Of a DNA stretch of 64,000 nucleotides, positions 12,458 to 62,936 are shown in pieces. The stretch's first letter is position 1. The number at the start of each line of letters is the position of its first letter. This DNA is from Eledone cirrhosa (taxonomy: Eukaryota). The stretch is taken from the NCBI GenBank assembly GCA_964016885.1, contig OZ024750.1:21142001-21206000 (forward strand). The letters are read 5' to 3'. Below the pieces are notes generated by a model, which saw only the letters and a program-made list of their open reading frames with translations, was not told where the DNA came from and did no database searches. The translations under genes and the position numbers were made by a program.

Positions 12458-12661
12458 AACGAAGGAAATGTGGTAAGGAACCAGATGGACCATAATGCAC
12501 CAAAGTACTCAATACTTAGGGTAGTAGAGTGGGTAATAGAAACGAGTAGGACCCCGACGGCTGAGCTCAAGCCGTTTCGACGGCTAATTCTGGACTCTGA
12601 GTCCGGAATTAGCCGTCGAAACGGCTTGAGCTCAGCCGTCGGGGTCCTACTCGTTCCTATT
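12458..12661 (-). mobile_element. FB-A fold-back element in (TA)n
   Basis: 77-nt tail aacgaaggaaatgtgg...gggt, then a near-perfect palindrome 12535-12661 centred on 12598; contains GAAA-cggct tgagctc agccg-TC (hammerhead 3' half). Confidence 0.9.
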
Positions 12662-12723
12662 ATATATATATATATATATATATATATATATATATATATA
12701 TATATTTATTTATTTATATATAC

Positions 12724-12765
12724 ATGATGGCTGCCCGCTCGTTATCGAGTATGGCTATTGCACGA
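12724..12765 (-). mobile_element. Short RTE-type 3' tail
   Basis: atgatggctgcccgctcgttatcgagtatggctattgcacga; near reverse complement at 47497-47541; similar to the LINE end at 5102. Confidence 0.55.
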
Positions 12766-12811
12766 AAAAAAAAACATAATAACAATAATGACAATAATAG
12801 TAATAATAATA

Positions 12812-12988
12812 ATTTCTACTTTTGGCACAAGGTCATCAATTAACCAGTACATTACTGGTACTTTATTTTATCAACCCCATAAGGATGAAAGGCAAAGTTA
12901 ACCTCGACGGGATTTGAACACAGACCGTAACGTGACGTAACTATGTTAGAAATCATGGCATCCAAACCTCAACCGATACTGCCAATTC
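12812..12988 (-). mobile_element. SINE family A
   Basis: Reverse complement of the family A sequence (tttctacttttggcacaagg...ggatgaaaggcaaagttaacctcg...ccgatactgccaa). Confidence 0.85.
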
Positions 12989-15685
12989 AATAATAGTAAA
13001 AGAGAGAGCTTGTAGATCGGACAACACACGCTGTCTTTTTCGGGGTGTAAGTTTTGATTAATTTTTGTATGTTCAAACATCCAAATTCAATAATATTTAT
13101 ACATACATTCCTTCATACATACACAAAGAGTGAGAAAGAGGTGCAGTTACATACACATCACCATGACCTGACATGAATGCCATAGAACTGTTGGAGTTTC
13201 ACAAGTTCACTCACGTACTTCATAATAATTAGTCATGTAAAGGAATCGGCTGAAGGTTATTTTCTAAATCGATTAGTAATTTAAGCACCTACCTTTGTTT
13301 CGTTCTCAAATGCATGGATATGATATCTATATGTTTTCAATATTCTATGTTTGATACGATTGAGAGCATTTAGCATCGTATCTTCTCAAACCAAAGAACT
13401 AGGAAAACCTTTCTAAAACATTAAAATGATTACTGAAGATGATTTAGGCCATATACGTACTGAACTAAATTATGCATTTAACATACACGACACATATTTA
13501 GACCTGCGTAGTTGCCGTGATTAGCCCCATAGTTTAATGCTGCGATCATCCCGCCATGCTTCTTCGTCGGAATTACGCATATTGTTCGTTCCCTATGTTT
13601 CCATCAGTCTTGAACCCCATGCCAACCCTACCTCTCTGTGGACCGAGTTTAACTGAGTGACTAAGACTTTAACGTTGTCATTATTAGCACTGAGTTCCAT
13701 TCTTACTGCTTGGCATCTCGATTAAGTGGCATACACATAATACAGTTATATGTTACGTCAACTGTGTAACTAAAACGAAGTTATGTTGTAGTAAGTCAAT
13801 ACTGTTAGACATGTTTCCAAATTTCAATTCTTAGTAGATCAATAACGAATATCAACTTCAATTATCAAATACAGCATCTCTTCCATTCTTCACAAGTAAG
13901 TAATAATTGATAAATGCTTATGATTCACCATTTCGAATGGCGACGAAGTAATTGAAAGATAATTGTTCCAACCGAGGCAGTATATATTGTCTGGAGTATT
14001 CCTGAAAATTTACTTGAAGCATTAGGCTAAATATATATCTGGAACTGTATCAATAACTAATACCTAAATTACAACTATTAAAAACAGGCATTAATTGATA
14101 CGGCTATTATTTCATGTGTATGCAAATCATCAGATTGATGTTGCCTCATGCTCCCTGCAAATGTGTCATTCCCGAGAAAAACGAAACAGAAGGGCAGAAA
14201 GAGCCAATCTGACTAGCTGGGCTCATCCTTTATCAGTTGTTCAGTGATGAAACGTCGATATCCAATATTACACCTTATCACCTTATTCAAACCCCGCTGT
14301 AAAATATCAAGTACTTATAATAGTATCAGCATAGTACTAGTAACACTATTGTGTACGTGAAGTGTATGACTCCTTGTGAATACAAGTGCTTGAATGTAAT
14401 GTGTTCTCTCGTCACATCTACATGTGCTATTCCAAGTTGTTATTCTAAAACTGAAAGATTACTGTCTTTCTAAAGCTTATGATAATATTCTGAAACAAAG
14501 TTATGAAAACTTCCTTGCGCTATATATAAGTGTATATATCATGTTTATCAAAATGTCTATCAAAAACGATGGCGATAGGACACATTTCTCTGTGCAAATA
14601 TATTGTTCGTATATATAAACAAACGTTTTCTTCTGAGGAAACATTTCGTATAGGCTTTGTTAATTATTCCGTATAATACACAGCAGGTTTCATAATCGCT
14701 ATAAGGCAATATACATATAATGTCTCTAACACGTAGCAGTAACGCCTCTTTATTTTCTGTCGGTCCTTATTATCTCTCTCTGTTTCTCCTTATTATATCC
14801 CTCCTTGCTTTTTATTCATTCCTCTTTCTTCATAATTGTAAATACATTTACATATATTCCAGGCGGTGTAGAGATTCTAACGAACACACTGCTCAAGAGC
14901 TTTCCTAAATACACAATATTGTTTATGTTCATGTGCTTGTGCCAAGGAAGGTTTTATAATTGCGTAGAATTTTCTGCCAAGGGCCACCAAGAGGAATTTA
15001 TCAATGCAAGACTATATATGTTGCCTTGTCTTAGATTTTAACAATTTACATACACACAGAGATACACACACGTACATAGTCACATACAACTTTACAACCA
15101 TCTTACACCAATACAAACGGCGTCGATAGCAACTTTCTCTTTATTTCAGTTCATTCTTTTCCCACATCTCACTTGCTTCTATCCTTTCCATTTTTTGCAC
15201 TCACATTTCTTTCTTCTTTATTTGGCTTCTTTCTATAGTTATTCTCTAGCGAAATTTACATCAGAGCATCTTTCCTTCAGTTATCTTTCTATCACCATTA
15301 ATATTACTCCTGTGTCTCCACCCGCCCCTCCTCATTATTTCTTGCTTAACTTTCCCCAGTTTCTAGTGTTGTAAAGTTTCAAGTCTTTCAAATCTTTCAG
15401 TTATCTCCTACTGGTGTCACGTTTTCTCAAATGTATTTGCCAATGAGTATTCTCACTTTCTCCAACGATAGCCTGTGGATGTAATTCTCTATATATATAT
15501 GAATGTATATATATATATATATAAAGAAGATCCACGTACATGGATGGATATATATAAATATATATATGTATATGTGTGTGTGTACGCTATCGCATACACA
15601 GTTGAATACGGAGAAAGGCAGTTGGGAATATAATATATATATATATATATATATATATATATATATATATATATATATAATATAT

Positions 15686-15891
15686 AACGAAGGAAATGTA
15701 GTAAGGAACCAGGTGGACCAAAACGCATCAAAGTACTCAATACTTAGGGTAGTAGAGTGGGTAATAGGAACGAGTAGGACCCCGACGGCTGAGCTCAAGC
15801 CGTTTCGACGGCTAATTCTGGACGGCTAATTGGCCAGAATTAGCCGTCGAAACGGCTTGAGCTCAGCCGTCGGGGTCCTACTCGTTCCTAT
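15686..15891 (-). mobile_element. FB-A fold-back element in (TA)n
   Basis: Same tail and arms as 12458 but a different palindrome centre (ctggacggctaattggccag). Confidence 0.9.
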
Positions 15892-60523: not shown

Positions 60524-61523
60524 ATATATATATATATATAGAGAGAGAGAGACACATGTGTGCGTGTGTGCATGTCAGTATGTGTAAATATATATGTATA
60601 TATATAAATATATATATATATATATATGTATGTATGGCGTAGGTAAGTTTCCTGGGCAAAAATGTAATCGTATGAAGTGTAGGATCTTTTGAATGTGGCA
60701 GTTGTTTAGTTGTTTAATGTCAAATACATCACATACATACACACAGACAAACACATATATGATTACATTTACGCTTAATAATAAGTTTCCAAGAATGGAT
60801 ACTCAATAACATGCTAGTGATTGATTTATTAAGTTCGAGTTAATGTCCTGTAATTCTGGAGTCTCAATTATCAATACGGATACATCATACAGTCAAAACC
60901 TTATAAACCTATGAACATAGCCAAACATCCAAAGTAACAAGACACAGTTGTGAAGTTTATAAAACTATACATAGAGATCGTTTTATCTCTTTCTGTCTGC
61001 GTATATATAAACAATAAATAGAAATAGAAGATATAGATTTATAACTATATATTTCTATGATATAATTTGGGGTTATCCTTTTAATGTAACGAATATTTTA
61101 CTACTTTTATTAATATATATATATTGTTTGTGCAATGAAGAAACAGATATCGACATAATATTTTTCAATCTATGTATGCAGGGTTTGCAAAAAGATAATG
61201 ACATTCGGAATGAACGTGAGACATCATGACACACTTTGTCTGTGTTTAGGAAATTAAACAAAGGAATAACGAAGTAAAATAACGGATGGCTAATATCAAA
61301 CTGTCAATATTTGTATATTCTCACGCCTGGCTTGTAATTTGATAAGAACACAAACAAACAAATTATATATTGATGTGTTGATATGAATATATTGATAACG
61401 ATATAGGCAATGATATAAACATTAGAATTGGGACAATGATTGTAATGTATTGCAAGACAGAAATACATTGTAATAATAACCAAATGATTGTAGTAAGATA
61501 ATCTATAATGTTAATAATAATAA

Positions 61524-61713
61524 TAATTGCTTCTACTTTTGGTACAAGGCCAGCAATTACTCCAGTACATTACTGGTACTTTATTTTATCGACCCCGTAA
61601 GGATGAAAGGCAAAGTTAACCTCGACGGGGTTTGAACTCAGACCATAAAGGGACGTAACTATGCTACAAAGCATGGTGTCCAACCCTCTACTGATACTGC
61701 CAATCCATCGTCC
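61524..61713 (-). mobile_element. SINE family A
   Basis: Reverse complement of the family A sequence. Confidence 0.88.
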
Positions 61714-62748
61714 TTATAATATTAATAATAATGATTATGATAATATTATACCAGGATTTTAAGTGGAAGTTAGAAAAGATTTGAGACTGTCATTAGATCA
61801 AGTTCTTCCCGATCGTCATAGGAGCACGAGGTACTATCTGAAAGAATTTTCAAGGATGGTTAAAGAATATTAGTCCAGACCCGTTTTTTGTAACATTTCA
61901 AAAGCATGCTTGCGGGGAACATCAAGAACCCTCCGATACGTCCTGAATATCTCAGGCTTCAGGTAGCGGCTTGATATTCATTTGAAAAAACTTTCCAGTT
62001 AAATAACATAAATAACTGAGACTCAAAGAATAATAATAATCATTTTAATAGTAGCAATCATTGTAATAATAGTAATAATCGTATCAAGATGTTCTTGCAT
62101 TGGCAAAGGTCCTATAAATCCTAATGGTAATGACGAATATTTAGGCATAATTTCACCACTAGTTCAAAAATGGGAACGAAAAAATCAATCATTCAGCCAA
62201 AGGAATATCATCGCATAATATCCTCCGGCTGCTATTTTAAACTTCCTTAACACCTTTGATACCAACTCAGTTAAAGTTTGCCCTGATTCTGTGGGATAAA
62301 GTCCAAACGTTAATCTTCTCCTATTTAAATTAGATTACCATGACATAATTCCATATAATACTATATGTTAAATGACAAACTTAGTGATGAAGTAATTATA
62401 ATTGTGGTACATCACTTAAACTTCTTCCTTAATTGAAATAATGTGTCGTTTCGTTTACATATATATATATATATATATATATGGAATCTGGTCCCTTACT
62501 ATTTGAACACATATCTGTGTTTATCTCTCTTTATTATACTGAATTATATTACACGGCCCTGAAGAATTTTTTTCATTGAGCTGTTTAATTGTAAGAGACT
62601 ATTTTGAGTTTCTAACACAATATATACTTTATATATATACTTTATATATATATATATATATATGTATATGTATCCCCTGACAATATGCATATATATCCCC
62701 TGACATATATATATATATATATATATATATATATATATATATATATAT

Positions 62749-62840
62749 AACGAAGGAAATGTGGTAAGGAACCAGGTGGACCATAACGCACCAAAGTACT
62801 CAATACTTAGGGTAGTAGAGTAGGTCCTACTCGTTCCTAT
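62749..62840 (-). mobile_element. FB-A element, minimal version (tail plus an 18-nt inverted arm)
   Basis: aacgaaggaaatgtgg...gggtagtagagta joined to ggtcctactcgttcctat; both family-fixed ends are retained. Confidence 0.9.
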
Positions 62841-62880
62841 ATATATATATATATATATATATATATATATTTATTTATTT

Positions 62881-62936
62881 ATTAAAATAACCGAGTCGTC
62901 TTTGGATTTTAGTCTTCAAATTTATTATTATTACTA
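62881..62936 (+). mobile_element. FB-B element, minimal version
   Basis: attaaaataac joined to cgag..ctttggattttagtcttcaaatttattattattacta. Confidence 0.75.

What the first reader, a model, noticed from the sequence alone, without database searches (positions are those of the whole stretch)
12458..62936. Two fixed outer ends with a variable inner junction suggests priming from both sides of a TA break
Seen: all seven FB-A copies end at aacgaagg (or a close variant) on one side and at ...cctat on the other, yet the fold-back point differs in almost every copy, down to 92 bp total at 62749. FB-B behaves the same way (ends ...ttacta and attaaaataac). At 24456 the inverted arm and sense tail barely overlap, so it is not a hairpin. 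The inverted arms start at a short AT/TA microhomology 35-90 nt inside the 3' end. Inference: two cDNAs from one RNA, one primed at the 3' terminus and one at a fixed internal site, are joined head to head. (TA)n is self-complementary, so both broken ends could act as equivalent primers.
Basis: inference. Interest (0 to 1): 0.85.

Follow-up and report, generated by a model that had tools for sequence, protein, structure and literature searches.

The report
Penelope insertions primed from both ends
These hairpin-shaped inserts in TA repeats are stubs of Penelope-like jumping genes that almost always pair one long arm with one short arm, likely because both cut DNA ends copy one RNA from two fixed start points until they likely run off its capped start, which offers a testable answer to how these elements insert.

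Summary
Observation largely confirmed. FB-A is the end of a 3,546-bp Penelope-like element (717-aa RT plus GIY-YIG, Hydra-clade motifs); FB-B belongs to a related element.

Outer ends are fixed. In sampled FB-A arms, 87 of 173 end at the terminal site and 69 about 80 nt inside. Genome-wide, 3,387 fold-backs pair one long with one short arm, against 17 both-long and 18 both-short. Either arm can reach further 5', and some pairs do not overlap, so neither arm is a copy of the other.

Two corrections. (1) In tandem masters the 'terminus' is also an internal TAT, so both ends prime by TA microhomology. (2) Inner junctions are not dispersed: 105 of 140 lie in a 12-nt zone at an initiator-like site, and 169 of 338 informative loci carry an extra G on both arms, likely a copied cap. 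Kilobase arms never paired with such run-off arms (0 of 17), which favours one RNA.

The inverted-copy-plus-tail architecture and two in-vitro start sites are published. My searches did not find the strict pairing or the run-off junction. This scan noted two-ended priming before, in this genome and in others. No RNA data were available.

The parts
12458..12660 (-). FB-A copy: long arm 12458-12596 (terminal site to -137), short inverted arm 12600-12660 (-137 to -77); junction CTGGACT-C-T-G-AGTCC with an extra base on both arms
15686..15891 (-). FB-A copy, arms -136 and -134, with a locally templated insert of about 10 nt at the junction
24983..25125 (+). older FB-A copy (83% identity), long arm from -116, short inverted arm
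27470..27705 (+). FB-A copy, arms about -150 and -149 with a spacer; short-arm end abuts another repeat
29080..29514 (+). two FB-A copies in tandem (29080-29277, 29317-29514), one insertion duplicated; arms -133/-133, 7-nt insert; arms 99-100% identical to the coding element
62749..62840 (-). 92-bp FB-A copy: long arm from about -75, short arm about -94..-77, no overlap
7374..7574 (-). FB-B copy, long arm -103..0, short arm -157..-86, 31-nt insert
19850..20002 (-). FB-B long arm only; abuts another Penelope-type end at 20007
24323..24413 (+). FB-B copy, long arm -46..-1, short arm -129..-86, no overlap
24456..24587 (+). FB-B copy, long arm -56..0, short arm -163..-86, no overlap
25484..25647 (-). 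FB-B copy, long arm with a short inverted arm
62881..62934 (+). minimal FB-B copy: 11-nt inverted arm plus part of the tail
33782..34204 (-). fold-back of a third family (D), 98-99% identical to the direct repeats flanking an RT + GIY-YIG reading frame in L080; ends at +3 and -33

Best explanation
FB-A and FB-B are 5'-truncated ends of Penelope-like retroelements in which one arm stops at each of two fixed TAT-type sites, likely because the element's enzyme cuts a (TA)n run and both DNA ends likely prime reverse transcription on one RNA, with the two cDNAs likely joined head to head by end joining after most likely running off the RNA's capped 5' end. Shown: element identity, two fixed ends, one-of-each pairing, TAT at both sites in the tandem template, independent 5' extent of the arms, the junction cluster and the extra base. 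Inferred: cleavage by the GIY-YIG domain; a dimer with one subunit per site (a dimer is predicted for the anole enzyme); one RNA molecule; a transcription start at -137, with a minor one at -141, inside the end repeat. Under this model priming on the 5' copy of the signal gives 60-140-nt run-off arms, and kilobase or tandem arms need priming on a downstream copy in a read-through transcript.
For: Identity: FB-A is the end of a 3,546-bp tandem unit with a 717-aa frame carrying YRDDG and YIGLT, with Atlas hits of 0.96-0.99 to clusters with HTH_animal, GIY-YIG or RVT families. FB-B arms enclose a frame 40-55% identical to it (L130). Ends: 87 + 69 of 173 FB-A arms at two sites; 38 + 30 of 78 FB-B arms; 9 + 9 of 20 family-D arms, 2 running on into the frame. 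Pairing: 3,387 vs 17 vs 18. Of 6 both-long loci read, none was a full palindrome between TA runs. TAT or ATAT at the sites in tandem masters of A, D and E. Independence: among the 100 loci listed, counted by eye, the short arm alone reaches -137 in 17 (1 more unclear), the long arm alone in 15, both in 16. No overlap in 4 of 70 FB-A pairs and 8 of 17 FB-B pairs. Run-off: sharp upper edge; TTAGTCC with TATTTAAA 29 nt upstream; C..G on both arms in 169 of 338 loci. One RNA: 0 of 17 long pairs have a partner ending at -141..-130. End joining: microhomology of 2 nt or more in 8 of 17 long junctions, chance 0.15 each, P=0.002. In vitro precedent: PMC11167929.
Against: No RNA run was available, so the start site and cap are untested directly. 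The extra C could be terminal-transferase activity at any RNA end. 29 of 100 sides counted by eye carry G rather than C, and the 1/9 null ignores bias from local templating. Many single junctions (for example CTGGACTCAGAATT) fit an intramolecular snap-back equally well. The anole enzyme started at a site not homologous to the cut DNA, unlike the TAT match here. Palindromes can be homogenised, which weakens the 46-of-47 arm agreement. 17 of 173 arms and 11 of 70 pairs do not fit the two-site pattern exactly. Three long arms had no partner in 10 kb (L188, L190, L195). Which arm reaches further 5' shows no significant bias (16 vs 10, P=0.33). No FB-B tandem junction was found, so its terminal TAT is untested. 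No empty site was compared.
Confidence: 0.75

Rival explanations
1. Self-priming (snap-back): one cDNA, or an antisense template, folds back and is copied, and the copy joins the other TA end at the TAT 80 nt inside (proposed for rotifer Penelopes, PMC3846280).
For: The commonest short junctions fit a hairpin with a 4-6-nt loop and one paired base. Arms of one insertion agree at variable sites (46 of 47). The 99% asymmetry follows naturally.
Against: A copy cannot reach further 5' than its template, yet the short arm alone is full length about as often as the long arm alone (17 vs 15, by eye). It exceeds the long arm by 300-2,300 nt in 9 of 17 long pairs. Non-overlapping arms occur, including in copies 100% identical to the master (L272). 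Junctions with both arms full and a 0-1-nt spacer cannot be priming loops.
Confidence: 0.07
2. Both ends prime at the same outer site, and the endonuclease then trims one arm back to the inner TAT (the 'EN-mediated resolution' reading of the tail in PMC8557442).
For: The inner site is AT-rich, like the ATT preferred by the anole endonuclease. It explains arm independence as well as the best explanation does. A few arms end at TA-free places between the two sites.
Against: It needs exactly one arm trimmed in 99% of events and resealed to (TA)n. The anole enzyme starts at two RNA sites that bracket the tail. The 36-40 nt after each FB-A site resemble each other (42 of 5,000 shuffles score as high; 3 of 7,252 other windows), as expected of two binding sites.
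Confidence: 0.11
3. The 200-bp hairpin is itself a non-autonomous element copied as a unit from a few masters, and the variable centre is later slippage.
For: Some junctions recur: one occurs in 10 of 29 matches among the best hits to the 29320 copy. Short copies far outnumber long ones.
Against: That set was selected by similarity and still held 12 junction types. Unselected lists show dozens of junctions. Both subfamilies share the same hot spot. Kilobase copies, each with its own junction, obey the same two ends. Short copies lack the sequence downstream of the terminal site that forms a predicted stem in the master RNA.
Confidence: 0.05

Closest known systems
Insertion architecture of endonuclease-bearing Penelope-like elements (Craig et al. 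2021, PMC8557442, passages and section 11 read; rotifer Penelopes, PMC3846280, passages and Discussion read)
   Same: 5'-truncated copies, partial tandems, an inverted 5'-truncated copy joined head to head, a tail at only one end, (TA)n targets.
   Different: There the tail is 30-40 bp and optional, and is attributed to endonuclease resolution or self-priming. Here it is 77-94 nt in FB-A and FB-B, is present on exactly one arm in 99% of counted FB-A fold-backs, and the junction maps to a likely RNA 5' end.
Poseidon element of Anolis in vitro (Frangieh et al. 2024, PMC11167929; parts 1-2 of 4 read, supplements not read)
   Same: Both strands are cut and extended. Two internal start sites near the start of the reading frame bracket the tail. 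A dimer is predicted, and hammerhead cleavage is not needed.
   Different: There the start sites did not differ between strands and were not homologous to the cut DNA. Here the two arms use different sites, and each site matches the target by TAT. The text I read offers no model for the inverted copy.
Hydra clade of Penelope-like elements, including Hydra-1_Obim (PMC8557442 section 11 and supplement part 2 of 59)
   Same: C-terminal GIY-YIG, RWR (for RWK), DKT, CxCx5C linker, CxxC and CxH near the C terminus, (TA)n insertion.
   Different: The unit is 3.5 kb rather than under 3 kb, and the hammerhead core is non-canonical. The FB-A and FB-B end motifs were not found in that supplement's text, so these appear to be further families.
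LINE-1 twin priming
   Same: Two target strands prime two cDNAs on one RNA, giving an inversion joined by microhomology.
   Different: In L1 the second site is variable and internal, the first is the poly(A) end, and the arms do not overlap. Here both sites are fixed and the arms usually overlap and end together.

Membership tests
Endonuclease-bearing Penelope-like elements | Single reading frame with RT and a GIY-YIG endonuclease | tested here: met
   717-aa frame with QFDI, MG, YRDDG and YIGLT; Atlas neighbours carry GIY-YIG, RVT and HTH_animal families; BLASTP E=7e-6 to an element with Pfam RT and GIY-YIG hits. Pfam itself gave no hit for this protein.
Endonuclease-bearing Penelope-like elements | Tandem or partial-tandem units forming pseudo-LTRs | tested here: met
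   L176, L177, L178/L179 and L192; not seen for FB-B
Endonuclease-bearing Penelope-like elements | Inverted 5'-truncated copy and one-sided tail | tested here: met
Endonuclease-bearing Penelope-like elements | Hammerhead ribozyme in the pseudo-LTR | tested here: inconclusive
   FB-A folds into a three-way junction CCCC/UUGAGAA/stem/GAAA/stem/GUC/GGGG, but the core is non-canonical, the fold z-score is about 0, and Rfam finds no hammerhead. The FB-B core is mostly CAGAAGA.
Hydra clade | RWK and DKT motifs, no GxKF/Y | tested here: met
   RWR at 37, DKT at 117, no G.[KR][FY] match (definition)
Hydra clade | CxCx5C linker, CxxC and CxH in the endonuclease, no CCHH | tested here: met
   CNCPDRSIC at 572, CNLC at 670, CKH at 698; absence of CCHH judged by eye from the printed sequence, not by alignment
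Hydra clade | Insertion into (TA)n | tested here: met
   flanks
Hydra clade | Generally under 3 kb | tested here: not met
   unit is 3,546 bp; described as a tendency, not a strict rule
Hydra clade | Phylogenetic grouping with reference Hydra RTs | not tested
   reference proteins were not available as session sequences
Naiad clade | Endonuclease N-terminal to RT | tested here: not met
   YIG at residue 606, after the RT core at 252-349
MITE or fold-back DNA transposon | Symmetric terminal inverted repeats reaching both ends | tested here: not met
   35 symmetric of 3,422 counted; arms vary from 11 nt to kilobases and belong to an RT element

The most novel reading that the evidence does not exclude
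A dimeric Penelope enzyme reads a duplicated RNA signal (TAT plus a degenerate repeat of about 35 nt), one subunit per site, and primes both ends of a TA break on the same RNA. Because the element's promoter fires only 137 nt upstream, most events give two cap-terminated 'strong-stop' cDNAs joined back to back. Only read-through transcripts of tandem arrays can yield full elements, which would explain the tail, the inverted copy and the need for tandems in one scheme.
Probability: 0.45. Interest if true: 0.75.

Novelty: new variant of a known kind. Interest (0 to 1): 0.58.

Why it matters
Craig et al. 2021 call the origin of Penelope tandem and inverted structures undefined, and Frangieh et al. 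2024 leave the steps after initiation open. Thousands of young copies here give quantitative constraints: one arm per site, TAT pairing at both sites, arms independent in length but apparently from one RNA, and a run-off point. These argue against the published self-priming idea and name the bases to mutate in an existing assay format. A retroelement that writes both strands of a break from one RNA would also interest genome-engineering work. The elements themselves belong to a known class.

Tried and rejected
Assembly artefact: rejected. Short-read contigs of runs X1-X4 (one study, at most two samples, possibly the source sample) show loose TA ends at the same two sites, opposite-strand joints and a steep depth drop at the junction zone.

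RNA evidence: no RNA holder listed; no evidence either way.

Rfam: the window scan listed no hammerhead among the 150 rows shown, with 60 rows not shown; none in the FB-A end. The microRNA hits are below their gathering scores and reflect hairpins.

Pfam and PDB sequences gave nothing for the FB-A protein.

FB-B tandem junction: none seen among the 40 long arms inspected. The automatic long/short labels of those 40 were unreliable and are not used.

Family E end statistics were spoiled by a TA run in the reference and are not used.

A bias for the long arm stalling at the inner site (collision on one RNA) was looked for; it is not significant and is open to ascertainment.

A second junction cluster at the hammerhead cut (-97) is hinted by a few copies, too few to claim.

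The exact-walk script mis-set the ends in at least three loci (L283, L173, L289), so pair statistics come.

The bioRxiv paper 10.64898/2026.07.22.740005 was only term-searched and has no passage on tails or inversions; its supplements were not seen.
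Full report
Setting. The window is G000:C10:21142001-21206000 of a 3.0-Gb animal genome. It is probably a cephalopod; that rests on a recalled SINE likeness and earlier scan notes and was not tested. Coordinates such as -77 count from the last base of ...CCTTCGT (0) on a natural coding copy (L178).

Observation. Two FB-A copies are one duplicated insertion, and one FB-B copy lacks the inverted arm. At 24456 the arms cover -163..-86 and -56..0 and do not overlap. 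A 20-nt FB-A anchor has 32,813 exact genome matches and its control 0.

What the repeats are. The genome holds 10,597 first-look GIY-YIG candidates, of which 150 were scored. Several window fold-backs match the repeats that flank such frames; for example 33782-34021 is 98-99% identical to both direct repeats around an RT + GIY-YIG frame in L080. A 570-nt FB-A copy beside the window (L046) led to the coding element: a 3,546-bp tandem unit with a 717-aa frame starting 94 nt past the terminal site. It has RT motifs (QFDI, MG, YRDDG), a C-terminal YIGLT, and RWR, DKT, CxCx5C, CxxC and CxH, matching the Hydra clade description (PMC8557442 section 11). Pfam and PDB give no hit. The Atlas gives 0.96-0.99 neighbours with HTH_animal, GIY-YIG or RVT families. 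FB-B arms in L130 enclose a frameshifted frame 40-55% identical to this protein. A Hydra family from Octopus bimaculoides is published, but FB-A and FB-B end motifs were not in that supplement's text.

Outer ends. I sampled 864 kb not chosen for FB-A (window, 200 kb of flank, 60 spaced 10-kb stretches) plus 59 stretches around anchor matches in the first 22 Mb of C1. Of 173 arms at 88% identity or more and 25 nt or longer (older and shorter hits dropped), 87 end at -1..+3, 69 at -79..-74 (66 exactly at -77) and 17 elsewhere. Of 70 head-to-head pairs, 59 are one terminal plus one internal, 1 is terminal-terminal, and 10 have one arm ending elsewhere. FB-B: 38 of 78 arms end at 0..-4 and 30 at -86/-87. 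Family D: 9 and 9 of 20, with 2 running on into the frame. Whole-genome exact counts for one subfamily and one gap range (80-110 nt) give 3,387 long-plus-short, 17 both-long and 18 both-short. Free choice of site would give about half symmetric. Of the 6 both-long loci read, none was a full palindrome between TA runs. Kilobase copies obey the same ends: all 17 clean long pairs have one arm at 0 and one at -77 (one at -81).

First correction: both sites are internal TAT words. In tandem copies the sequence runs CCTTCGT|TATCTAG, and the inner site is GTTCC|TATTACC. Insertions read TAT and then (AT)n at both. Family D (TTTTAAC|TATCATA; CCA|ATATATAAT) and the terminal site of family E (TTTTCTT|TATACTT) agree. 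For FB-B no tandem junction was found. Following a lead from an earlier scan note (e1-8804881), I compared the 36-40 nt after the two FB-A sites. They form a degenerate repeat (42 of 5,000 shuffles and 3 of 7,252 other windows score as high), which is modest, post-hoc support for two equivalent binding sites.

Second correction: the inner junction is a hot spot. 105 of 140 paired arm ends lie at -141..-130, none at -153..-142, and 13 at -129..-118. 9,641 loci genome-wide have both arms in this zone. The edge coincides with the A of TTAGTCC (-137) and of TCATTT (-141), with TATTTAAA 29 nt upstream of -137; the initiator and TATA consensus are recalled. Where both arms reach -137 and neither continues with the templated base, 169 of 338 loci carry C on one side and G on the other, against 1/9 for random bases. 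By eye, in the 50 loci listed, the 100 sides are 71 C, 29 G and 0 T. The window copy at 12458 is such a case. FB-B arms cluster similarly at -160..-155 (15 of 78; A of TT|AGTTTC), with some extra G/C. The simplest reading is run-off at a capped RNA 5' end (that RTs copy the cap G is recalled), followed by trimming and joining. Local templating could inflate the C count, and no RNA run was listed, so this step is inferred.

Two cDNAs, not a snap-back. In the 100 oriented loci listed, counted by eye, the short arm alone reaches -137 in 17 (one more unclear), the long arm alone in 15, and both in 16. In long pairs the short-ended arm reaches 300-2,300 nt further in 9 of 17. Arms do not overlap in 4 of 70 FB-A and 8 of 17 FB-B pairs. 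Zero- and one-base spacers between two full arms occur. A fold-back copy cannot do these things without later deletion, and such cases include copies 100% identical to the master. Long junctions show microhomology of 2-3 nt in 8 of 17, 1 nt in 1, blunt joins in 2 and inserts in 6; the chance of 2 nt or more is 0.15 (P=0.002).

One RNA. If the arms came from independent templates, the partner of a kilobase arm would end at -141..-130 about 75% of the time; 0 of 17 do. Fifteen of these loci were selected for one long arm only. Left out were L186 and L189 (partner broken off), L280 (internal deletion), a duplicate, and nine stretches with no partner visible, three of them 10-kb stretches with a complete single arm. 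The left-out pairs also have long partners. Arms agree at a C/T site in 46 of 47 pairs, though conversion or a single active master could give that too.

Model. The endonuclease cuts (TA)n (inferred; both-strand cutting and extension shown for the anole enzyme). Each 3' end pairs with a UAU of the RNA, one at each site, probably one per subunit (dimer predicted in PMC11167929). Both cDNAs run 5' until the RNA ends or synthesis stops, and their free ends are joined by microhomology with occasional templated inserts. A transcript starting at -137 carries the signal at its 5' end and gives the abundant stubs. Long and tandem copies need the signal downstream in a read-through transcript. A predicted stem pairs sequence on either side of the terminal site (z about 0), so stubs may be unable to move again. 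Confidence: class 0.98, two cDNAs at two sites 0.85, one RNA 0.7, capped run-off 0.65.

What is known. Inverted 5'-truncated copies and a one-sided 30-40-bp tail are standard for the class (PMC8557442; PMC3846280). They were explained by endonuclease resolution or by self-priming on an antisense template. Two internal start sites bracketing the tail and extension of both strands were shown in vitro, with no strand difference and no homology to the target (PMC11167929, parts 1-2 of 4; its supplementary figures were not read and may bear on this). Searches found no paper with a one-site-per-strand model or a cap-marked junction; the library lacks most subscription journals. This scan reached the two-ended reading before in this genome and in others. 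None of the notes returned held all the words of my cap and start-site query.

Verdict. A real and abundant feature: stubs of apparently new families of a known clade. New variant of a known kind; interest 0.58.

Noticed in passing
window 59988-60523 and 58217-58463; L104: A short element of about 290 bp per unit with a tRNA-like segment (Rfam tRNA 43.8 bits, above cut-off, 60308-60379) forms the same two-ended fold-backs in (TA)n and is tandem in L104. It may be a Pol III non-autonomous partner of a Penelope-like element; no link to a coding element was found.
   Followed up: partly
window 24722-24820: A 27-bp perfect inverted duplication flanks a TA run (tail to tail around the run), unlike the fold-backs, which sit inside the run.
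   Followed up: no
L178/L179 (G000:C2:320546500-320564499): Array with five FB-A end repeats. Two inner units are 100% identical to each other and share a stop, while the outermost unit differs by 8 substitutions and 4 gap bases and is open; origin unexplained.
   Followed up: partly
window 17505-17648, 7595-7718; 5692-5860, 20007-20114, 41497-41594; 3556-3638, 25229-25407, 27345-27469, 42523-42771; 12175-12418: Four more TA-associated repeat families. The 17505 family flanks RT + GIY-YIG frames in L074, L075 and L079, and the 5704/20007 family lies next to one in L078. 12175 and 25290 carry CTGATGA...GAAAC hammerhead cores.
   Followed up: partly
window 34574-34864 and 28181-28597: Elements with short (28 bp) or long (118 bp) terminal inverted repeats in or beside TA runs. 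The 34574 one is symmetric and looks like an ordinary MITE.
   Followed up: no
L178:5200-5290 (-): The inferred start at -137 lies inside stem II of the hammerhead-like fold, so a 5' copy could not form the ribozyme, while a read-through copy would cut at -97, upstream of both priming sites. A few arms end at -95..-103.
   Followed up: partly
window 29041-29553: One FB-A insertion duplicated in tandem with its TA run (237-bp period); L221 shows the same kind of duplication.
   Followed up: no
window 199-480, 1204-1430, 4404-4568, 7757-7954, 12813-12990, 36688-36883, 46395-46527, 53451-53920, 61527-61720: An abundant dispersed repeat of about 200 bp, SINE-like, unrelated to the fold-backs.
   Followed up: no
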